From Clostridium bornimense (GTDB taxonomy: Bacteria; Bacillota; Clostridia; Clostridiales; Clostridiaceae), in assembly GCF_018917145.1 (NCBI RefSeq), contig NZ_JAHLOD010000025.1:1-53508 (forward strand): a DNA stretch of 53,508 bases, given 5' to 3'. Position numbers and translations under genes: made by a program. Below the pieces are notes generated by a model. It searched no databases, was not told the DNA's origin, and saw nothing but the letters and a program-made list of their open reading frames with translations. This document shows positions 1-52,872 of this stretch, piece by piece; within the stretch, counting starts at the first letter, position 1, and the number at the start of each line of letters is the position of its first letter.

Positions 1-129
1 ACCACCGCGAGTATTACCATACTTAATTCCAAGATCTAAACATATTTGACGACAACTTCTAGTTCCTGAAATATAATCTTTTGATGCCTTGATTTTATCT
101 TCAAAAGAATATTTATATTGTCTTCCCAT
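1..129 (-). mobile_element. N-terminal part of an IS3-family (IS150-group) transposase OrfA, truncated by the window edge. The IS left end probably lies within about 130-260.
   Basis: The minus-strand translation MGRQYKYSFEDKIKASKDYISGTRSCRQICLDLGIKYGNTRGG matches the IS150 OrfA N-terminus/HTH pattern (KYxFExxxxxVxxYxxxxxxxxxIxxxxGI). A GGAGGT RBS sits 8 nt upstream of the ATG at 127-129. Confidence 0.45.
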
Positions 130-3619: not shown

Positions 3620-4549
3620 ATGGTGTATAAATTGATATTTGTAATAGTATTACTTGTTTTAATAGTGGTGTATTTGTTTATACACCTTATTTTATTAAAG
3701 AAATCTATAAAAGATTTAAAAAATGATTTTATTTCAATAAAAGATACCAAGGAGGTTGAAAGGTATCTTACTATTAATTTTCCTGATAAAAATTTAGAGG
3801 AATTAGCAATGGAAATTAATGATTATATAGATAGTTATTTTAAAAACAATTATCAATTAAAAAATACTATAAGAGAAGTAAGAGGAGAAATAACAAATAT
3901 TTCACATGATTTAAGAACTCCATTAACTTCTATCTTAGGATATTTAGAACTTTTTAATGAAGAAGAATTAACAAATGAACAAAAAGAAATCATATCCGTT
4001 GTAAAAAGAAGGAGTATTGGCCTTAAAGATTTAATAGAACAACTTTATGAATATACTAGGCTAGAAAATAAGGAATATAATATTAAAATTGAAAAGATAG
4101 ACTTATATAAAGTATTACAAGAACATATTCTTGAGTTTTATATGGAATTTGAGAAAAAAAACATAGATTTTAAGTTAAATATGTCTAAAGAAGCAAAGCC
4201 AATATGGATAAATGGAGATATAAAATGTATAAAAAGAATTTTAACTAACTTAACAAATAATGCTTTGAAATATACAAATGGAGAAGCAGAAGTTAACCTT
4301 AAGGTAAAAGGTAATATTGTAAGTTTTACATATATAACGACAAGAGGATCTTTAACAGATTATGATATTAAACATATATTTGATCGATTTTATAAAAAAG
4401 ATTTATCAAGATCAGTAACTAATAGTAGTGGTCTTGGACTTACTATTACTAGAATTTTTACTGAGAGGATGGGTGGAAATATTTATGCCTATGGAGACGA
4501 TGAATATCTGTATATAGTATGCATTTTTCCTATGGTAGATTCTATATAG
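3620..4549 (+). CDS. Sensor histidine kinase of the intramembrane-sensing type (single N-terminal TM, no extracellular domain).
   Basis: HisKA H-box ISHDLRTPLTSILGYLEL, N-box LTNLTNNALKYT, G-box GLGLTITR. Confidence 0.85.
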   Translation: MVYKLIFVIVLLVLIVVYLFIHLILLKKSIKDLKNDFISIKDTKEVERYLTINFPDKNLEELAMEINDYIDSYFKNNYQLKNTIREVRGEITNISHDLRTPLTSILGYLELFNEEELTNEQKEIISVVKRRSIGLKDLIEQLYEYTRLENKEYNIKIEKIDLYKVLQEHILEFYMEFEKKNIDFKLNMSKEAKPIWINGDIKCIKRILTNLTNNALKYTNGEAEVNLKVKGNIVSFTYITTRGSLTDYDIKHIFDRFYKKDLSRSVTNSSGLGLTITRIFTERMGGNIYAYGDDEYLYIVCIFPMVDSI

Positions 4550-4673
4550 TAAACTAGTATAATTAAGTGTTGTTTATTGATAGGTCAGTAAAAACAGCAC
4601 AATTTGATTAATAAATGTGAATATTATTTGTCACTTTATCAGAAGATTGTAAGAAGCTACATGTAAAATATAA

Positions 4674-5104: not shown

Positions 5105-5443
5105 ATGGATCAATTACCAAATTGCCCAAAGTGTAATTCAGAATATACTTATGAAGATGGAAATCTTTTAGTTTGTCCAGAATGTGCATATGAGTGGACA
5201 CCAGGTTCAGAAAGTGAAAATGGAGATGAATTAGTAGTAAAAGATGCTAATGGAAACATATTAAAAGATGGTGATACTGTAACAGTAATAAAAGATCTTA
5301 AAGTTAAAGGAAGTTCATCACCAATTAAAATAGGAACAAAAGTTAAAAATATACGTTTAGTTGATGGTGATCATAATATTGACTGTAAAATAGATGGATT
5401 TGGAGCTATGAGTTTAAAATCTGAATTTGTTAAAAAAGCATAA
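5105..5443 (+). CDS. phnA: PhnA/YjdC-family zinc-ribbon protein.
   Basis: Near-colinear with E. coli PhnA: [56 protein letters not shown]. Confidence 0.8.
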
Positions 5444-5663
5444 TTAAATTTTAAATAAGAAGGGTTGTCGCAATAACGAAGAGATTCGTGAGCGAGGCCT
5501 TTTTTTATTTATATAAAAATTTCATTTAGAGATGAATTTCACGAGGAAGCGAGGATAAAATTTTAATTTAGCTAACTCATCCTAAAATAAGGAAAAATAT
5601 TATAATATATGGTAAAATAAAAGAAAATATAATATTAGTTTTTCAATTTGAAAGGAGGATAAA

Positions 5664-8439: not shown

Positions 8440-8880
8440 TTGGAGCATGAATATAATTATTATAACTTTAGTGAAAGCGATATAGAAAACTTAAAGTTAC
8501 TATATGAGCAGCTTCGTGCTCAAACTATGTTTATATATTCTGATTTTTTATCATATCTAGCTACAATTGAAGGTATACAACTTATTTATAGTAAGTATGA
8601 CCCTAATATTCCTTCCGATATATACAATCCAGATATTACAGCATTACAATCATTATATGTAGCTATTATCGCAAGGTTAATGATTGCCAATGTAGCATTC
8701 ACTAAATATGATATTTTAATAAATAAATTTTATAATGGAGAGATTGATTTTTCACTTCAACCTAATATAGATATTAATATTTCAAATGTATTGTCTACAT
8801 TAGGATATATGTATGCCTTACGTGGTGCTCGAGGAATTTATGAAAGGGATATTACTCAGCCGGTATTTGGTGTTAGATGA
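8440..8880 (+). CDS. Hypothetical protein (TTG start, RBS AGGGGGAAG).
   Basis: The ORF has a good RBS. No family was recognised. Confidence 0.35.
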   Translation: MEHEYNYYNFSESDIENLKLLYEQLRAQTMFIYSDFLSYLATIEGIQLIYSKYDPNIPSDIYNPDITALQSLYVAIIARLMIANVAFTKYDILINKFYNGEIDFSLQPNIDINISNVLSTLGYMYALRGARGIYERDITQPVFGVR

Positions 8881-8885
8881 TGTCA

Positions 8886-9050
8886 AGGTATAGTTTCATG
8901 TACCTTTAATTAAAATATGCTTATGTAATAAATATAGAAACAACGCTTAAGTATAATAGCCAAATATAGCAACTAAAAACATAAATATACAACCATAATT
9001 ATGAAGTGTGAACTGCGAAATTATAATTAATATTTTATGTGTTACAAATA
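8886..9050 (+). repeat. Decayed partial copy (D) of the GC-rich intergenic repeat family. It matches the internal hairpin-'ACTTAAGTATAATAG'-'TGTGAACTG' portion of copy B.
   Basis: AAGGTATAGTTTCATGTACCTT hairpin followed by AAACAACGCTTAAGTATAATAG...TGTGAACTGCGAAATT...TTTTATGTGTTACAAAT, compared with B GAAGGTTGCACCTTC...AAACAACACTTAAGTATAATAG...TGTGAACTGTGAATTG...TTTTATGTGTTAATGCGG. Confidence 0.5.
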
Positions 9051-11579: not shown

Positions 11580-11590
11580 GATAAATTACA

Positions 11591-11640
11591 AAGGAGTTGT
11601 CGCACAATGTTTGTGCTTCAACTCCTTATTTTTATATTTT
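11591..11640 (+). terminator. Rho-independent terminator of glgP.
   Basis: AAGGAGTTG-TC-GCACAA-TGT-TTGTGC-TTC-AACTCCTT two-tier hairpin followed by ATTTTTATATTTT. Confidence 0.7.
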
Positions 11641-16120: not shown

Positions 16121-16141
16121 ACGAAATATAACATAATGAAT

Positions 16142-16208
16142 CTCGTATATAATCGATAATATGGATCGAAAGTTTCTACCTGCAAACCGTAAAAGTGCAG
16201 ACTACGAG
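16142..16208 (+). promoter_or_regulatory. Purine riboswitch aptamer, guanine/xanthine class (C at the specificity position).
   Basis: CUCGUAUAUAAUCGAUAAUAUGGAUCGAAAGUUUCUACCUGCAAACCGUAAAAGUGCAGACUACGAG. P1 is CUCGUA/UACGAG, the P2 loop is AAUAUGG, J2/3 is AAAGUUUCUACC, the P3 loop is ACCGUAAAA and J3/1 is GACU with C74. It is nearly identical to the B. subtilis xpt G-box. Confidence 0.9.
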
Positions 16209-16254
16209 GAGTTGTATTTCATTTGTATAGCAAAAGAAGATAGCTTTTGAAATA

Positions 16255-16311: not shown

Positions 16312-17646
16312 ATGAGTAAGAACAATGAGAATACTATTGGCTTAACTTACCAGGTAGATGATAATCCTTCATTACCGAAGAAAATTTTATTTGGACTTCA
16401 ACATATATTTGCAGCATTTTCAGGAATTGTTGTAGTTCCGTTGGTAATCGCAGGAAGCTTAGGCTTTGATAGTACAATGACAACAGCATTGATTAGTGCC
16501 TCTATTTTGGCATCAGGTATTGCAACTATAGTACAGGCAAGAGGTATTGGAAAAGTAGGATCAAAAGTTGCTTGTATTATGGGTACAGATTTTACATTTG
16601 TATCACCAGCAATTTCAGTAGGACAAACATTAGGAATGGCAGGTATAGTTGGAGCTACAATTTTGGGATCGTTTTTTGAAATTATTTTAAGTTATTTTAT
16701 AAAACCATTAATGAAGTTCTTTCCTCCAATAGTTACTGGAACTGTAGTATGTTTAATTGGCCTAACATTATTGCCAGTGTCAATAGATTGGGCTGCTGGA
16801 GGAAGTGGAGCAGCTGACTATGGAAGTTTAAAAAACTTATCTATTGCAATGATAGTAATGGTAATAACTCTAGTTCTGAATAGTTATGGCAAGGGAATGT
16901 TAAGCAGTGCATCTATTTTAATTGGAATGACTATAGGATATTTAATATGTATTCCTCTTGGAATGGTTGATTTTTCAGCTGTTAAAGAAGCAACATGGTT
17001 TTCAATGCCTAAAATATTTCAATATGGAGTAGTGTTTAATTGGAAAGCATTATTAGCATTTATACCAGCATATTTTGTTACTACAATAGAAACTGTTGGA
17101 TGTTTAAAGGCTATAGGGGAAACTTCTAATATAGAAATGGATGAAAAGAGAGTTGGAGCTGGAGTTTTAGCTGATGGAGTAGGTAGTATTGTTGGTGCTA
17201 CAGTGGGTTCTTTCTCAAATACATCTTTTAGTCAAAATGTAGGATTAATTTCTCTTACAAAAGTTGCAAGTAGGCATGTAGCAGTAATGGCAGGGACACT
17301 TTTAGTGATTTTGGGATTATTTCCTAAGTTAGCAGGTCTGATCAATGGAATTCCACAACCAGTACTTGGTGGTGTTGGAATAGTAATGTTTGGAACTGTA
17401 GCTGCGGCTGGAATTAAAACATTAAGTAGAGTAAAATTAAATGATAGGAATCTTTTAATAATAGCTACATCAATAGCTCTAGGATTAGGCGTAACATTTA
17501 GACCAGAAGTTATATCACAGTTACCAGAAGGATTACAAATGATATTTGCATCAGGAATTTCAACAGGAACAATTGTTTCATTAATACTAAACTTAGTTTT
17601 AAAAGAGAGTAAAGATGAAATTTTAGAAAGTACAGAAGAGGTGTAA
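16312..17646 (+). CDS. pbuX: NCS2-family xanthine permease.
   Basis: 444-aa 12-14 TM protein of the NCS2 (xanthine/uracil permease) family, downstream of a G-riboswitch and upstream of xpt. Confidence 0.85.
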
Positions 17647-28654: not shown

Positions 28655-29296
28655 ATGGTTATATTATATACAGCTAAAAATGGAGAATATACAAGCCTTC
28701 AAGGGCAAAGTAATATTAAGGATAATGTTTATGTTAATTTAACTAATCGTTGCCCAGCAGCATGTACTTTTTGTTTAAGAAACACAAAAGAAATGGCAGA
28801 GTCAAATAGCTTATGGTTAAAGAAAGAACCAACAAAAGAAGAAATTATATCAGAATTTGATAAATATGATTTAAGCAATGTTAAGGAAGTTATATTTTGT
28901 GGATTCGGTGAACCGATGGAAAGAGTCTACGATATAGTTGAAATTGCTTCATATGTAAAGAAGAAATACAATGGTATGTCTATTCGTATAAATACTAATG
29001 GACTAGCTAATTTAATTCATGAAAAAGATATTACACCATTACTTAAAGGATGTATAGATACAGTTTCAATAAGTTTAAATGCTTCTAATGCAGAAGAGTA
29101 TTATAAAATAACTCGTAATAAGTTTGGAATAAAATCTTATGATGAAATGTTAAAGTTTGCAGTAGAGTGTAAAAAATATGTGCCTAATGTTGTAATGACT
29201 GTAGTGGATTGTATTGGTGAAGAAGAGATAGAAGCTTGCAGGAAAGTATGCAATAAAATAGGATTGCCATTAAGAGTGCGTCCGTTTGAAGAATAG
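28655..29296 (+). CDS. Small radical-SAM protein (Cx3Cx2C), function unknown.
   Basis: NLTNRCPAACTFCLRN cluster and a GFGEP glycine-rich SAM motif, in a 213-aa protein. Confidence 0.7.
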   Translation: MVILYTAKNGEYTSLQGQSNIKDNVYVNLTNRCPAACTFCLRNTKEMAESNSLWLKKEPTKEEIISEFDKYDLSNVKEVIFCGFGEPMERVYDIVEIASYVKKKYNGMSIRINTNGLANLIHEKDITPLLKGCIDTVSISLNASNAEEYYKITRNKFGIKSYDEMLKFAVECKKYVPNVVMTVVDCIGEEEIEACRKVCNKIGLPLRVRPFEE

Positions 29297-29304
29297 AAGA
29301 GTAT

Positions 29305-29360
29305 AAAAGGAGTTATCATTAACAAAAGAAGGTTTGTTAGAGATAGCTCCTTTTATAATT
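29305..29360 (+). terminator. Rho-independent terminator after the radical-SAM gene.
   Basis: AAAAGGAGTTATC...GATAGCTCCTTTT followed by a T-run. Confidence 0.5.
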
Positions 29361-29517
29361 CAATCAATTTGCAATTTAATCAGTTTAGATAATCTGCTAT
29401 ATATACTGATATTTTATGTTATAAACAATTTTATTTTGTTTAAATTATAAAGAAAAATGTATATCTAGGTAATACAGTTTTCATACTAATATTATATAGA
29501 AGTGGAGGAGATATAAA

Positions 29518-31511: not shown

Positions 31512-32357
31512 ATGAAAAAAAAGATTACTACAGTATTAGTTGTATTATCAATTTCTACAATAGCATCGGTATTTTTTGGTGTTATATCAGGAATTACACA
31601 TTTAGCTAAAGAAAAGGTTGCTGTGAAGCCTTTGAAAAGTAAAGAAAAAATAGTAGCATTGCTAGTAGAAGAATATAATGAAAATTCTAAGTTTTATAAT
31701 ATGAAAGTTGTAGATGAGAAAGATAATAATGAAGAAAATAATAATGAAGATACTACAGAGGAAAAATCAGATATAGAAAAAGAGAATAATGTAGTTAATA
31801 ATAATGTAGAAGAAAAACAAGATAATAAAGTAAATGGACAAGCAGTCATTGCTGAATCAAACAATAAAGCAACTAATACAACAGAGGATTCATCGGTAAC
31901 AAATACAGAGGAAGATAATATAATGAATATTTCTCAAGAGCCTATTAGTAATAACTTTTTTTCAAATATAGAAAGTATTATTTTACAAAGAGTAAATGAG
32001 GAGAGAGCTAAAGAAGGACTTGCTGCATTAACATATAGTAGTACAATGAGAAAATATGCAAGAATAAAATCTATGGACATGGGCGACAGAGGATATTTTG
32101 AGCATAGAGATCCAGAAGGTCGTTTAATGAGTGATATAATTAAAAAAGATGGAATTACATATAAAGCATGGGGAGAAAATATAGCATATATAGGTGGAAT
32201 GACAGATGAAGCTGCAATAGCAGAACGTTTTGTGAATAACTGGATGAATTCGCCGAGTCATAAGGCTAACATATTATGTGATAGATTTGGAGAAATTGGT
32301 ATAGGTGTGTATAAAATAGGAAATAGATTTTATGCTACACAAGAATTTTTCAAATAA
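31512..32357 (+). CDS. CAP/SCP (YkwD-like) domain protein, paralog 2. It has an N-terminal signal anchor and an acidic N/E-rich linker.
   Basis: Same C-terminal domain (LQRVNEERAKEGLAAL...WGENIAYIGG...WMNSPSHKANIL...FGEIGIGVY). Confidence 0.65.
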   Translation: MKKKITTVLVVLSISTIASVFFGVISGITHLAKEKVAVKPLKSKEKIVALLVEEYNENSKFYNMKVVDEKDNNEENNNEDTTEEKSDIEKENNVVNNNVEEKQDNKVNGQAVIAESNNKATNTTEDSSVTNTEEDNIMNISQEPISNNFFSNIESIILQRVNEERAKEGLAALTYSSTMRKYARIKSMDMGDRGYFEHRDPEGRLMSDIIKKDGITYKAWGENIAYIGGMTDEAAIAERFVNNWMNSPSHKANILCDRFGEIGIGVYKIGNRFYATQEFFK

Positions 32358-32625: not shown

Positions 32626-33477
32626 GTGGTACCGATGAAAAATAAACTAATTGCCATAGTATTAACAACATCTATTATAGGGGGAGTAGGAAGTACAGCT
32701 TATGCTGCTGGAATAGGTTCTAATGATACTTCCAATGTAGTAGTACGTAAGTGTAGTTATAAGAAAAGACATGATAGGTTGTTTAAGAAGAGACATCCAT
32801 TCTACAATGGAGGATGCACTAACAGACCTAATAACGGCACAGAAAATGGAGATATCGATGAGATAATTCCACCTATTATAGGAGACAAACCATCAAAGGA
32901 TGATGTAATCCCACCAACAACAGAGGATAAACCATCAATAGATGAAGTAATCCCACCGACAACAGGAGATGAGTCATCAAAGGATGATGTAATTCCACCA
33001 ACAACAGGAGATGAATCATCAAAGGATGATGTAACTCCGCCAACAACAGACAATACACCAAGTGTTAATGATAAGTTTATGGCGCAGGTGGAACAAAAAA
33101 TATTTGAAAAGGTTAATGAAGAGAGAGCAAAAGCTGGAGTTTCAACATTATCATATAATAGTACCATGGAAAAGTATGCAAGAATAAAATCTCAAGATAT
33201 GGGAGATAAAGGATACTTCAATCATACAGATCTAGAAGGTAATCTAATAACTGTCCAAATGCAAAAAGACGGTGTAAGTTATAATGCTTGGGGAGAAAAT
33301 ATTGCATATATAGGCGGAGTATCTGATGCAGATGCTTTAGCAACACAATTTATGAAAAATTGGATGAACTCACAAGGACATAGAGAAAATATTCTATCAA
33401 CTAACTTTGCATCAGTTGGAGTTGGAGTTTATAAATCAGGAAATAGAGTTTACGCAACACAAGAATTTTATAGATAA
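32626..33477 (+). CDS. CAP/SCP (YkwD-like) domain protein, paralog 3. It has a cleavable signal peptide, a Cys/basic segment and a tandem P/T/D-rich repeat linker.
   Basis: Signal peptide MKNKLIAIVLTTSIIGGVGSTAYA, a (IPPTTGDESSKDDV)n linker and a C-terminal CAP domain (FEKVNEERAKAGVSTL...WGENIAYIGG...WMNSQGHRENIL...VGVGVY). Confidence 0.7.
   Translation: MVPMKNKLIAIVLTTSIIGGVGSTAYAAGIGSNDTSNVVVRKCSYKKRHDRLFKKRHPFYNGGCTNRPNNGTENGDIDEIIPPIIGDKPSKDDVIPPTTEDKPSIDEVIPPTTGDESSKDDVIPPTTGDESSKDDVTPPTTDNTPSVNDKFMAQVEQKIFEKVNEERAKAGVSTLSYNSTMEKYARIKSQDMGDKGYFNHTDLEGNLITVQMQKDGVSYNAWGENIAYIGGVSDADALATQFMKNWMNSQGHRENILSTNFASVGVGVYKSGNRVYATQEFYR
32863..33060 (+). repeat. About 4.5 tandem copies of a 42/45-bp repeat encoding the 14/15-aa unit IPPTTGDESSKDDV inside CAP paralog 3.
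   Basis: Direct reading: ATAATTCCACCTATTATAGGAGACAAACCATCAAAGGATGATGTA / ATCCCACCAACAACAGAGGATAAACCATCAATAGATGAAGTA / ATCCCACCGACAACAGGAGATGAGTCATCAAAGGATGATGTA / ATTCCACCAACAACAGGAGATGAATCATCAAAGGATGATGTA / ACTCCGCCAACAACAGAC... Confidence 0.85.
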
Positions 33478-37963: not shown

Positions 37964-38190
37964 AAGGAGCTGTCGTACAAAGGAGTTAGAGATTAGAGTG
38001 CGGCAGTTTTTTCAGCAAAATAGAATATCAGGGCACAAGTACGAGGGCACAAGGCACAGGTATGTATCAGTGCACAGCATCAGAGCTGTGCACTAAATTG
38101 TGCCTTGTTCCATCTAACCTGTGTCATGTCTTTTCTATAATAAAAGGAGGTATCGCTGCTTTTCCTTTCTTAATGCGACACCTCCTTGTA
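37964..38190 (+). repeat. Copy A, the short form (~230 bp), of a GC-rich structured intergenic repeat family. It has a 5' 'AGATTAGAGTGCRGCAGTTTTTTCAGCAAAATAGAATATCAGKGCACAAGTAYGAGGGCACAAGGCACAGG' module, an internal CAGTGCACAG/CTGTGCACT hairpin and a 3' SD/anti-SD hairpin.
   Basis: About 94% identical to copy B over the 88-nt 5' module. The 3' hairpin is AAAAGGAGGTATCGC-loop-GCGACACCTCCTT. Local GC is far above the flanking DNA. It lies between convergent yaaA and the lipase gene, with the hairpin end 20 nt past the lipase stop. Confidence 0.8.
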
Positions 38191-42026: not shown

Positions 42027-42560
42027 GCAGGAACTGTGTACAAAGAAGTCAGATTAGAGTGCAGCAGTTTTTTCAGCAAAATAGAATATCAGTGCACAAG
42101 TATGAGGGCACAAGGCACAGGGATATATCAGTGCACAGTGATGGATGAAGTTCCCTTTGGGGAATTTCTGAGATTTTAAGTGCCACAATTTTGTACATAG
42201 AATAAGTTAGTTTTCTTAAGGTACTTGTATTTGATATAGAACTGTTACGGGAGGCTAATGAAGGTTGCACCTTCATATAGCTTGTAGTGGGAACCCATGA
42301 TTAATGAAAACAACACTTAAGTATAATAGTTTTATATATGCACTAAACATATCTATAAACACAATTCTAATTCGCTGTCCGCAGGACTTATAATATTTTC
42401 TCCACAGGGGAAAATTAACCGACATTGTGAACTGTGAATTGAACATAGGATATTTTTCCCATCGAGGAAAATTAACTGAAACTGTGCACTGAATTGTGCC
42501 ATAAGAAAAGGAGGTATCGCTCTAACAACTTTTTATGTGTTAATGCGGCACCTCCATATT
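42027..42560 (+). repeat. Copy B, the long form (~534 bp), of the GC-rich structured repeat family. It has the same 5' and 3' modules as copy A plus a ~340-bp segment inserted in the loop of the CAGTGCACAG/CTGTGCACT hairpin.
   Basis: Direct alignment with A. The internal segment contains a GAAGGTTGCACCTTC hairpin, AAACAACACTTAAGTATAATAG and a tandem sub-repeat (TCTCCACAGGGGAAAATTAACCGACATTGTGAACTGTGAATTG / TCCCATCGAGGAAAATTAACTGAAACTGTGCACTGAATTG). The 3' SD/anti-SD hairpin AAAAGGAGGTATCGC...GCGGCACCTCC ends 5 nt before the stop of the minus-strand gene 42565-42957. Confidence 0.8.
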
Positions 42561-47213: not shown

Positions 47214-47289
47214 GGGAGCATAGCTCAGCTGGGAGAGCATCTGCCTTACAAGCAGAGGGTCACAGGTTCGAGCCCTGTTGTTCCCACCA
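47214..47289 (+). tRNA. tRNA-Val (anticodon UAC), CCA encoded.
   Basis: The cloverleaf folds by hand: acceptor GGGAGCA/UGUUCCC, anticodon stem UCUGC/GCAGA with loop CUUACAA, T-loop GGTTCGAGCC, terminal CCA. Confidence 0.9.
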
Positions 47290-47294
47290 TATAT

Positions 47295-47371
47295 GGCTCA
47301 GTAGCTCAGTTGGTTAGAGTGCCAGCCTGTCACGCTGGAAGTCGAGGGTTCGAGCCCCTTCTGAGTCGCCA
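47295..47371 (+). tRNA. tRNA-Asp (anticodon GUC), CCA encoded.
   Basis: Acceptor GGCTCAG/CTGAGTC, anticodon stem CCAGC/GCTGG with loop CUGUCAC, T-loop GGTTCGAGCC, discriminator G plus CCA. Confidence 0.9.
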
Positions 47372-52465: not shown

Positions 52466-52860
52466 GTTAGAAAAAGAGGTGTCGCATTAACAAATGAAAA
52501 ATTGTTAGCGATACCTCTTTTTCAATTAAGACAATTTAATCAATTTACAATTCACAATTTTAAGGCAAAGGTAAAGGTAATTTACAATTCACTCAATTCA
52601 AGCAATTCGCAATGGTGGTTAATTTTCCCCTGTGGGGGAAATTTTATAGTCCTGCGGACGGCGAATTACAATTGTATTTATAGATGTATTTAGTGCATAT
52701 ATAAAACTATTATACTTAAGTGTTGTTTTTCATAAATTATGAGTTCCTACTACAAGCTACATGAAAGCAAAGCTTTCATTAACTGTGCCCTGATATATAC
52801 CTGTACCTTGTGCCGTCATACTTGTGCCTTGCTAAAAAAGATGCTGCATTTCTTTGTATT
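52466..52860 (-). repeat. Copy C (~395 bp, inverted orientation) of the GC-rich structured repeat family.
   Basis: The reverse complement reads ...TGCAGCATCTTTTTTAGCAAGGCACAAGTATGACGGCACAAGGTACAGGTATATATCAGGGCACAG...ATGAAAGCAAAGCTTTCAT...AACAACACTTAAGTATAATAG...CCCCCACAGGGGAAAATTAACC...AAAAAGAGGTATCGC-loop-GCGACACCTCTTTTT. Its hairpin end lies 25 nt past the histidine kinase stop. Confidence 0.75.
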
Positions 52861-52872
52861 ACAGACCCTTTT

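What the first reader, a model, noticed from the sequence alone, without database searches (positions are those of the whole stretch)
37964..38190. Previously unrecognised family of GC-rich structured intergenic elements (copies A/B/C plus a decayed copy D)
Three well-conserved copies (37964-38190 +, 42027-42560 +, 52466-52860 -) and one decayed copy (8886-9050) share a modular architecture. (1) A 5' module, ~94% identical between A and B, carries iterated GCACAAG / GGCACAGG words. (2) A perfect internal inverted repeat CAGTGCACAG...CTGTGCACT follows. (3) A 3' hairpin pairs a canonical Shine-Dalgarno (AAAAGGAGGT) to its anti-SD (ACCTCC) and is followed by a T-run. All copies are strongly GC-enriched against a ~28% GC background. 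There is no conserved ORF and no transposase. In all three intact copies the SD/anti-SD hairpin end sits 5-25 nt beyond the stop codon of a flanking gene (lipase, a small membrane protein, the histidine kinase). The element therefore either supplies or has inserted into those genes' terminators. The element is one of a structured small RNA or 3'-UTR element, a non-autonomous MITE-like repeat, or a terminator-targeting insertion sequence remnant. I do not recognise it as any catalogued clostridial repeat. This is the signal I find most worth follow-up in the window.
Basis: seen in the sequence. Interest (0 to 1): 0.8.

Follow-up and report, generated by a model that had tools for sequence, protein, structure and literature searches.

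The report
IS1182-family miniature transposon copies at gene ends
The repeated GC-rich intergenic element is a transposase-less miniature derivative (MITE) of an IS1182-family insertion sequence sitting where gene terminators normally are, so it is a new member of a known kind of mobile DNA and not a new RNA or repeat class.

Summary
The repeats are real. Three copies have both ends: A 37966-38185 (+), B 42030-42556 (+) and C 52475-52868 (-). There are also decayed pieces.

The "Shine-Dalgarno/anti-SD hairpin" is the right terminal inverted-repeat hairpin of IS1182-family insertion sequences. A covariance model built only from seven annotated IS1182-family right ends finds the 3' hairpins of C, B and A as its top three window hits (E 9e-12, 3.5e-10, 6e-7). 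The 5' hairpin plus T-run aligns with the left ends of the same ISs. The window holds no transposase remnant.

Five of the six element ends lie 4-33 nt from a stop codon. No target duplication was seen, and B and C are flanked by an A-run and a T-run. This matches the published hairpin- and terminator-targeting, stem-loop-replacing insertion of IS1272/TnSha1, which belong to the same family.

Other assemblies of the species break inside A and B. C is fixed in 14 strain contigs and shows more variable sites than the neighbouring genes.

Rfam, plasmid and phage searches gave nothing for the interior. B and C carry an extra "middle module" that also occurs alone (D, 4544-4575); its origin is unresolved.

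Verdict: a MITE, and a new member of a known kind. Interest is low to moderate.

The parts
37966..38185 (+). MITE copy A (220 bp), lying between the convergent yaaA-like and lipase genes. It consists of the IRL hairpin plus T6, a long central GGCACAAG/CTTGTGCC palindrome, and the IRR hairpin.
37966..38012 (+). Left terminal inverted repeat of A with its inner complementary arm and T6: GGAGCTGTCGTAC..GTGCGGCAGTTTTTT.
   Evidence: It aligns with the IRL of IS1182-family ISs from C. felsineum, E. faecalis, C. difficile and L066. Alignment z is 6.5 against shuffles.
38142..38185 (+). Right terminal inverted-repeat hairpin of A: AAAAGGAGGTATCGC..TTAATGCGACACCTCC.
   Evidence: Model R1, built from 7 annotated IS1182-family IRRs, scores 32.9 bits with E 5.8e-7.
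42030..42556 (+). MITE copy B (527 bp), lying downstream of the 130-aa membrane-protein gene and upstream of the HAD hydrolase gene. It is the longest copy.
42506..42556 (+). IRR hairpin of B.
   Evidence: R1 scores 43.9 bits with E 3.5e-10.
42256..42434 (+). Middle module M in B (AAACAACACTTAAGTATAATAG...). It sits inside the loop of the central palindrome, and its last ~49 nt recur 57 nt downstream (42386-42491).
   Evidence: (families D4, D7; pairs I1, I3, I5)
52475..52868 (-). MITE copy C (394 bp), lying between the convergent histidine-kinase and TM2-domain genes.
   Evidence: It is present at the same site in 14 strain contigs.
52475..52522 (-). IRR hairpin of C.
   Evidence: R1 scores 49.4 bits with E 8.7e-12, the best hit in the window.
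52834..52868 (-). IRL hairpin plus T6 of C: GGGTCTGTAATAC..TGCAGCATCTTTTTT.
   Evidence: It is the second-best hit of the weak IRL model R2, with E 0.09. See also alignment A5.
29302..29393 (-). Decayed right-end fragment (subterminal AATTG words plus an IRR-like hairpin), abutting the stop codon of ORF 28655-29296.
   Evidence: blastn gives 70-74% identity to the right ends of B and C. R1 gives E 0.005. Sequence read.
5455..5506 (-). Solo IRR-like hairpin (AAAAAAAGGCCTCGC..TTGCGACAACCC), 12 nt from the stop of ORF 5105-5443.
   Evidence: R1 scores 28.1 bits with E 1.4e-5.
8886..9050 (+). It is a solitary, diverged copy of middle module M and has no IS1182-type ends.
   Evidence: (D7, I4)
4544..4575 (-). 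A 32-nt fragment of middle module M, lying at the stop codon of the histidine-kinase ORF 3620-4549.
   Evidence: (I11)

Best explanation
A, B and C are non-autonomous miniature derivatives (MITEs) of an IS1182-family insertion sequence, a family with a DDE transposase. They keep the two terminal inverted repeats that a transposase supplied in trans would recognise (left GGAGCTGTCG.., right ..CGACACCTCC), but have no transposase gene.

As in full-length family members, each terminal repeat is followed by an internal complementary arm and a T-run. Each end is therefore a hairpin that looks like an intrinsic terminator facing inward.

IS1182-family elements such as IS1272 and TnSha1 insert into DNA hairpins, mostly transcription terminators just after genes. 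They delete the stem-loop and make no target duplication. The copies here sit in that position. Their own end hairpins then most likely terminate the flanking genes.

What is shown: homology of both ends to IS1182-family ends, absence of coding capacity, repetition, and position at gene 3' ends. What is inferred: mobilisation in trans, stem-loop replacement at these particular sites, and terminator function of the end hairpins.
For: 1. Annotated IS1182-family ISs from seven Firmicutes plasmids, plus a 1890-bp element on a metagenome contig (L066, with DUF772, DDE_Tnp_1 and DDE_Tnp_1_6 domains), end in these sequences: left GGGGCTGTCGCAYTAA..TAGTGCGACAG plus a T-run, right AAAAGGAGCTATCGC..CTAATGCGACAGCCCC.
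2. Model R1, built only from seven of those right ends, ranks the 3' hairpins of C, B and A first, second and third in the 53.5-kb window, in the correct orientation (E 8.7e-12, 3.5e-10, 5.8e-7).
3. The left ends align with IS left ends. A against L066 gives z 6.5, and the right ends give z 3.4-4.4.
4. In copy A, the left end and the reverse-complemented right end match at 12 of 17 positions, as read directly from the sequence.
5. tblastn with five IS1182-family transposases finds no remnant in the window.
6. Contigs from other assemblies of the species stop inside A and B, as expected for a multi-copy repeat.
7. A ~215-bp element with the same ends but an unrelated interior lies in an unrelated Clostridia MAG (L011).
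8. Five of the six ends are 4-33 nt from a stop codon. No direct repeats flank the copies. B, C and the bona fide ISs L036, L017 and L038 have an A-run on the left and a T-run on the right. This fits the published hairpin and terminator targeting and stem-loop replacement without duplication (PMC5678879; PMC4923244).
9. The right-end hairpin is kept through changes on both sides of four pairs across ISs and MITEs: 83.5% of cells are paired, and 0 of 500 shuffles reach the covariation score.
10. The GGGCACA/TGTGCCC palindrome of the interior resembles the hairpin between the transposase stop codon and the right end in L004 and L066.
Against: - No cognate full-length IS with closely matching ends was found in this species. 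Only one 53.5-kb contig was available, and the genome and metagenome pattern scans returned only chance hits plus three distant Firmicutes hairpins.
- No empty site was recovered, so insertion and stem-loop replacement at these loci are inferred.
- Copy C is fixed in all 14 strain contigs, so there is no direct sign of recent mobility.
- The left-end model, built from 4 sequences, is weak. It ranks C's left end second (E 0.09) and does not find A or B.
- Most of the interior, namely the GGCACAAG words and the middle module, matches nothing outside the species.
Confidence: 0.85

Rival explanations
1. The element is a structured non-coding RNA or 3'-UTR element that acts at the RNA level. The hairpins would be RNA helices, and the SD/anti-SD stem would sequester a ribosome-binding site.
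For: All three copies fold far better than shuffles, with z from -5.2 to -6.9. There are compensatory changes in the 3' hairpin: GGAGG/CCTCC becomes AGAGG/CCTCT in C, and GGATGT/ACATCC appears in strain contig L051. In B and C, a TATAAT-like box in the middle module followed by the right-end hairpin plus T-run could delimit a ~230-nt transcript (reading).
Against: No Rfam family matches, even at E up to 10. The good folding follows automatically from inverted-repeat architecture. The same hairpin ends full-length ISs, where no gene follows. The interior differs by large insertions and deletions among A (220 bp), B (527 bp) and C (394 bp). Copy C has 17 variable columns in 410, against 8 in 501 for the adjacent kinase gene. 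No sigma-70-type promoter was predicted inside the element.
Confidence: 0.05
2. The hairpins are ordinary host bidirectional terminators of a type common in clostridia. IS1182-family elements would merely resemble or capture them, and the repeats would arise by duplication or gene conversion, not transposition.
For: Solo hairpins of the same type sit between convergent genes with no other element sequence. Examples are window 5455-5506 and 29302-29354, and the C. butyricum megaplasmid locus L064. On the opposite strand, each right-end hairpin is directly followed by 4-6 T.
Against: The outer arms are conserved in sequence across ISs from Enterococcus, Clostridium, Clostridioides, Butyrivibrio and Subdoligranulum. 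In two copies of one C. felsineum IS at different sites, identity starts exactly at GGGGCTGTCGC, so these are IS ends and not targets. A, B and C share 50-110 nt beyond the hairpins at three unlinked loci. Solo hairpins are more simply explained as remnants of such elements.
Confidence: 0.05
3. The element is a REP/REPIN-type element, or an IS200/IS605-type palindrome-associated element, mobilised by a Y1 (HUH) transposase.
For: In the Pelosinus locus L004, the homologous hairpin lies about 125 nt after an ORF whose N-terminal part matches Y1_Tnp (PF01797, E 1.3e-6).
Against: That ORF is a chimera. The part next to the hairpin is the C-terminus of an IS1182-type DDE transposase (PF13751, E 9.6e-15). 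The intact relative L066 has the same end with a DDE transposase only. The elements have terminal inverted repeats, which IS200/IS605 elements lack. There is no Y1 gene in the window (Pfam on the neighbouring genes).
Confidence: 0.02

Closest known systems
IS1182-family insertion sequences of Firmicutes (IS1272 and IS1182 of staphylococci; ISClbu1 of C. butyricum; annotated copies on C. felsineum, E. faecalis, C. difficile and Butyrivibrio plasmids)
   Same: Both terminal inverted repeats match, along with their inner complementary arms and T-runs. The copies lie just after genes, have no target duplication, and have A-run/T-run flanks, as reported for IS1272/TnSha1 insertion into terminator hairpins (PMC5678879, PMC4923244).
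   Different: There is no transposase gene or remnant. Length is 220-527 bp instead of about 1.9 kb. The inverted-repeat variant is GGAGSTGTCG / CGACACCTCC instead of GGGGCTGTCGCA / TGCGACAGCCCC. The left hairpin loops are longer, and the interior is unrelated apart from a GGGCACA-type palindrome.
IS1182-derived MITEs of Methanosarcina acetivorans (ISMac2-related, 160-169 bp, 7-14 copies; PMC3852290)
   Same: They are short, transposase-less, multi-copy elements bounded by IS1182-family inverted repeats.
   Different: They are in an archaeal host and have different inverted-repeat sequences. One of them has 4-bp direct repeats. No hairpin-ended or terminator-position architecture is reported in the table I read.
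Terminator-like bacterial MITEs such as Correia elements (Neisseria), RUP/BOX (Streptococcus) and REPINs
   Same: They are small intergenic repeats that fold into long hairpins, sit near gene ends and can affect transcript ends. This comparison rests on my own knowledge and was not tested here.
   Different: They derive from other transposase families or are of unknown origin, and there is no sequence relation. REPs are mobilised by Y1 (RAYT) enzymes and lack these inverted repeats.

Membership tests
MITE derived from an IS1182-family IS | The right terminal inverted repeat matches that of bona fide family members. | tested here: met
   Model R1, built from 7 annotated IS1182-family right ends, gives C, B and A as its top three window hits (E 8.7e-12, 3.5e-10, 5.8e-7). 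See also alignment A6.
MITE derived from an IS1182-family IS | The left terminal inverted repeat matches that of family members and is inverted relative to the right one. | tested here: met
   Alignment A5. A's left end against the L066 left end gives z 6.5, and B's gives z 4.8. A's left end and reverse-complemented right end match at 12 of 17 positions (read). The formal 4-sequence model R2 is weak, finding only C at E 0.09.
MITE derived from an IS1182-family IS | No transposase gene, and small size (well under 1 kb). | tested here: met
   tblastn with 5 family transposases gives no hit better than E 0.2 anywhere in the window. Only short unconserved ORFs are present, and none of them is in the protein collection. 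Sizes are 220, 527 and 394 bp.
MITE derived from an IS1182-family IS | Multiple dispersed copies in the genome. | tested here: met
   The 53.5-kb window holds three copies with both ends, plus a right-end fragment. Independent assemblies break inside A and B. The genome-wide copy number could not be counted.
MITE derived from an IS1182-family IS | A cognate autonomous IS in the same or a related genome, with near-identical ends. | not testable with these tools
   Only this one contig of the source genome could be read. The pattern scans of the genome and metagenome collections returned only distant relatives (L004, L006, L011) and chance hits. The closest full-length relative found, L066, is only moderately similar.
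MITE derived from an IS1182-family IS | Insertion behaviour of the family: a hairpin or terminator target, with 0 bp duplication or a duplicated stem-loop. | tested here: inconclusive
   Five of six ends lie 4-33 nt from stop codons. No direct repeats were found. B and C have A-run/T-run flanks, as do the bona fide ISs. However, no empty site was recovered: the sister-species contigs break just after the TM2 gene.
MITE derived from an IS1182-family IS | Evidence of mobility, meaning presence/absence polymorphism. | tested here: inconclusive
   C is fixed in 14 strain contigs. One short-read contig (L050) joins the right half of A to a different left flank, but this could be an assembly chimera.
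Any Rfam RNA family | A score at or near the family's gathering threshold. | tested here: not met
   Across the whole window only a purine riboswitch and two tRNAs pass. On B and C the best hits are 12-24 bits, against thresholds of 40-440.
REP/REPIN (RAYT-mobilised) or IS200/IS605-type PATE | Association with a Y1 (HUH) transposase, and no terminal inverted repeats. | tested here: not met
   The elements have terminal inverted repeats. The only Y1_Tnp match (L004) is the N-terminal part of a chimeric ORF whose hairpin-proximal part is an IS1182-type DDE domain.

The most novel reading that the evidence does not exclude
The copies may be more than inert MITEs. The hairpin-plus-T-run ends of this IS1182 subgroup could work as portable bidirectional terminators that replace the host terminator they destroy, which would make insertion nearly neutral and explain why solo end hairpins persist between convergent genes. 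In addition, the middle module carried by B and C, which also occurs alone at 8886-9050 and 4544-4575, could be a passenger transcription unit: a TATAAT-like box, about 230 nt, then the right-end terminator. That would make it a MITE-borne small RNA antisense to nothing in particular, or a second mobile repeat nested in the palindrome of the first.
Probability: 0.15. Interest if true: 0.45.

Novelty: new member of a known kind. Interest (0 to 1): 0.25.

Why it matters
The result assigns a conspicuous, unannotated repeat of a human-gut Clostridium to a known transposon family. The species is named Clostridium bornimense in the NCBI records that carry the identical kinase protein.

In practice it explains why short-read assemblies of this species break at these intergenic sites. 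It also flags a class of gene-end hairpins in clostridia, both in these MITEs and as solo copies, that are IS1182-type ends and not native terminators.

It adds a bacterial example to the few described IS1182-derived MITEs. It is also circumstantial support, from a different genus, for the hairpin-targeting, stem-loop-replacing insertion proposed for IS1272. It does not reveal a new mechanism.

Tried and rejected
- Rfam at gathering threshold on the whole window and at E up to 10 on B and C: nothing relevant.
- blastn of B, of the middle module and of the left 175 nt of A against plasmids and phages: no match.
- Exact-pattern scans for the 3' hairpin in the genome collection gave 13 hits, about the number I estimate from database size for chance alone. 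Only L004, L006 and L011 have extended stems. The metagenome scan gave chance hits plus the same Blautia locus. Viral contigs gave 0 hits for both the 3' hairpin and the 5' word pattern.
- Consensus promoter/terminator scans on the three loci were uninformative, because the loops are too long for the terminator rule.
- The idea of an IS200/IS605 or RAYT element, prompted by the Y1_Tnp match in L004, was dropped once the ORF proved chimeric and the hairpin proved to belong to the DDE part.
- I searched for empty sites via homologues of the TM2 protein. The only close relative (85% identity) sits on contigs that end 41-128 nt after the gene, and the next relatives are at most 64% identical.
- I looked up nine spurious ORFs of the elements in the protein collection, hoping to find further copies. 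None is present.
- The left-end covariance model built from 4 sequences was too weak to be decisive.

Full report
**Observation**

- A and B share an 88-nt 5' block at 94% identity.
- B and C share an 82-nt block at 94% plus flanking blocks at 80-87%.
- All three share a 3' hairpin.
- The pattern GGTATCGC-N(12-40)-TTAATGCGNCACC occurs three times in the window and never in 100 shuffles.
- GC content is 44% (A), 37% (B) and 33% (C), against 28.1% for the window.
- Each copy folds far better than shuffled sequence, with z from -5.2 to -6.9.

'Copy D' (8886-9050) shares only the middle module of B and C and has neither end. A sensitive blastn and the end model found two further pieces: a decayed right end at 29302-29393 (-) and an IRR-like hairpin at 5455-5506 (-).

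**Searches that gave no match**

Rfam gives nothing at these loci, at the gathering threshold or at E up to 10. blastn against plasmids and phages gives nothing for the whole of B, for the middle module, or for the left part of A.

**The lead**

An exact-pattern scan of one genome per species returned 13 hits. By my estimate from database size, that is about what chance alone would give. Three Firmicutes hits (Pelosinus L004, Blautia L006, a Clostridia MAG L011) had the same extended stem, AAAAGGGGTATCGC..TTAATGCGACACCCC.

In L004 the hairpin follows an ORF whose hairpin-proximal part is the C-terminus of an IS1182-type DDE transposase (PF13751, E 9.6e-15). The ORF's N-terminal Y1_Tnp part belongs to an unrelated disrupted gene.

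**The identification**

I used that C-terminal fragment as a tblastn query against plasmids and retrieved annotated 'IS1182 family transposase' genes. They came from C. felsineum, E. faecalis, C. beijerinckii, C. butyricum (ISClbu1), Clostridioides, C. difficile, Butyrivibrio and Subdoligranulum.

Their flanks show a common architecture:
- The left end is GGGGCTGTCGCAYTAA, followed by a short loop, the complementary arm TAGTGCGACAG, and a T-run.
- The right end is AAAAGGAGCTATCGC, a loop, and CTAATGCGACAGCCCC.
- In two copies of one C. felsineum IS at different sites, identity begins exactly at GGGGCTGTCGC. These sequences are therefore IS ends and not target sequence.

The window element has the same two structures:
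- left: GGAGCTGTCGTAC..GTGCGGCAGTTTTTT
- right: AAAAGGAGGTATCGC..TTAATGCGACACCTCC

**Formal test of the ends**

A covariance model built only from seven bona fide right ends, with no window sequence and without L004, ranks the 3' hairpins of C, B and A first, second and third in the window. All three are in the element orientation, with E 8.7e-12, 3.5e-10 and 5.8e-7.

The left ends align with IS left ends. The four-sequence left-end model is weak, finding only C's left end at E 0.09, probably because A and B have longer loops.

A nearly intact 1890-bp relative of the L004 element was recovered on a metagenome contig (L066). It carries DUF772, DDE_Tnp_1 and DDE_Tnp_1_6 domains with one frameshift. 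Its left end is GGGGCTGTCGCACTAAGAAATTAGTGTGACAGTTTTTTC. Aligned to A's left 70 nt, it scores z 6.5 over shuffles, and the right ends score z 3.4-4.4.

Between its transposase stop codon and its right end, L066 has the hairpin AAGGGCACA..TGTGCCCTTTTTT. L004 has GGCACACAAAATT..AATTTTGTGTGCC at the same place. The MITE interior is built from GGGCACAAG/CTTGTGCC words. This resemblance is short, so I treat it only as a hint that the MITE arose by internal deletion of an IS of this subgroup.

tblastn with five family transposases finds no coding remnant in the window.

**Position and insertion behaviour**

Taking the limits from the IS alignments:
- The right ends lie 24 nt (A), 8 nt (B) and 33 nt (C) from the stop codon of the converging gene.
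- The left ends of A and C lie 23 and 4 nt from a stop codon.
- Only B's left end faces a gene start.

I saw no direct repeats at the boundaries. B and C are flanked by an A-run on the left and a T-run on the right, and so are the bona fide ISs L036, L017 and L038.

This is the signature expected if the stem-loop of a bidirectional terminator was replaced. Published work reports the following:
- IS1272 (IS1182 family) inserts into inverted-repeat structures, several of them immediately downstream of genes, replaces them and makes no target duplication (PMC5678879).
- TnSha1/IS1272 always integrates into hairpins, several of which were confirmed as terminators by RNA-seq, with partial deletion of the target.
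- Some IS1182-family members are known to target palindromes (PMC4923244).

I could not recover an empty site for A, B or C, so this step remains an inference.

**Repetition and population data**

An identical histidine-kinase protein is recorded under Clostridium bornimense (WP_216463191.1). Its longest contig is 53,508 bp, the same length as this window.

Contigs from other assemblies that carry the neighbouring genes stop inside B and inside A, as expected for a multi-copy repeat. One short contig joins the right half of A to a different left flank. This is either a rearrangement or a chimera.

Copy C is present at the same site in 14 strain contigs from several human-gut metagenome studies. 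It has 17 variable columns in 410 nt, against 8 in 501 nt of the adjacent kinase gene. The sequence as a whole is therefore not under stronger constraint than the coding sequence.

The right-end hairpin itself is maintained:
- Across 11 IS and MITE ends, 83.5% of cells pair.
- Four pairs show changes on both sides.
- No shuffle reaches the covariation score.
- C (AGAGG/CCTCT) and strain contig L051 (GGATGT/ACATCC) carry compensatory changes.

This hairpin conservation is a property of the IS family's ends and not evidence for a separate RNA gene.

**Relatives elsewhere**

L011 holds a ~215-bp element with the same two ends and an unrelated interior, downstream of a P-type ATPase gene. Solo right-end-like hairpins lie between convergent genes on a C. 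butyricum megaplasmid (L064) and on a C. saccharoperbutylacetonicum plasmid.

**How it most likely works**

- Shown: the elements are transposase-less, repeated, bounded by IS1182-family inverted-repeat hairpins, and located at gene 3' ends.
- Inferred: they were mobilised in trans by an IS1182-family DDE transposase and inserted into terminator stem-loops, which they replaced. Their own ends now terminate the flanking genes. The left hairpin plus T6 reads inward from the left, and the right hairpin plus T4-6 reads inward from the right on the opposite strand.

The GGAGG in the right end is the local form of the family's GGRGC motif. Nothing indicates that it acts as a ribosome-binding site.

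**Unresolved**

The middle module of B and C (42256-42434 and 52603-52781) lies in the loop of the central palindrome. It also occurs without IS ends at 8886-9050 and as a 32-nt piece at 4544-4575. It may be a second repeat nested in the first, which would be plausible given the family's preference for palindromes, or a passenger. I found no homologue and no convincing promoter.

**Comparison and novelty**

IS1182-derived MITEs are already on record for Methanosarcina acetivorans (PMC3852290), and the family's hairpin targeting is published. This is a new member of a known kind. Interest is low to moderate.

Noticed in passing
window 42256-42434 (+), 52603-52781 (-), 8886-9050 (+), 4544-4575 (-): A separate 'middle module' (AAACAACRCTTAAGTATAATAG...) occurs inside MITE copies B and C. 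It also occurs on its own, without IS1182-type ends, after the stop codons of ORFs 8440-8880 and 3620-4549. It could be a second nested repeat or a passenger unit. No homologue was found outside the species.
   Followed up: partly
window 29302-29393 (-), 5455-5506 (-), 11588-11635 (+): These are gene-end hairpins that resemble IS1182-family ends without the rest of an element. The first is a decayed right end with AATTG words. The second is a solo IRR-like hairpin (R1 E 1.4e-5). The third is a terminator whose 5' arm reads GGAGTTGTCGCAC. Some terminators in this genome may be relics of such elements.
   Followed up: partly
L064 3001-3052 (C. butyricum plasmid NZ_CP039706.1) and L063 3001-3057 (C. 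saccharoperbutylacetonicum plasmid): These are solo hairpins of the IS1182 right-end type (GGAGCTATCGC..CTAATGCGATAGCTCC). The C. butyricum one lies between two convergent genes with no transposase nearby.
   Followed up: no
L011 6194-6408 (uncultured Clostridia MAG CANQUS010000009.1): A ~215-bp element with the same two IS1182-type ends but an unrelated interior that contains its own GC-rich terminator. It lies downstream of a P-type ATPase gene and is an independent MITE of the same subgroup.
   Followed up: partly
L050 1-82 (Logan contig SRR26629449_157271): In this assembly the right half of copy A, next to the lipase gene, is joined to a left flank that is absent from the window. The central part also carries a 7-nt insertion and several substitutions. 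This is either a rearrangement at the repeat or an assembly chimera.
   Followed up: partly
L055-L058 (contigs of a sister species, TM2 protein 85% identical): Downstream of the TM2 gene these contigs carry AATTCACAATTCAC words, the reverse complement of the AATTGTGAATTG words next to the right ends of B and C. All four contigs end within 41-128 nt of the gene, which suggests a related repeat at that locus in the sister species, possibly in the opposite orientation.
   Followed up: partly
window 16123-16224 (+): A purine riboswitch aptamer (RF00167, 80.7 bits), upstream of ORF 16312-17646.
   Followed up: no
window 47214-47286 and 47295-47368 (+): Two adjacent tRNA genes (Rfam tRNA, 69.6 and 66.2 bits).
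   Followed up: no
window 32854-33063 (+), and 31945-32244 / 33065-33364: There are in-frame 42-nt tandem repeats (five units, 75-80% identity between successive copies) inside ORF 32626-33477. A 300-nt block is shared at 72% identity with the neighbouring ORF 31512-32357. These look like paralogous repeat-containing proteins.
   Followed up: no
window 1-129 (-): The contig starts inside a short ORF (MGRQYKYSFEDKIKASKDYISGTRSCRQICLDLGIKYGNTRGG...). Its only plasmid match is annotated as a helix-turn-helix protein in C. sporogenes (57% identity, E 1e-4). By my reading it resembles the N-terminus of an IS3-type OrfA, which would explain the contig break. Pfam gave no hit.
   Followed up: partly
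L004 219-872 (-) (Pelosinus MAG): A chimeric ORF fuses the C-terminal part of a Y1 (IS200-like) transposase domain to the C-terminus of an IS1182-type DDE transposase. It is probably an IS1182-family element recombined with, or inserted into, an IS200-like gene.
   Followed up: partly
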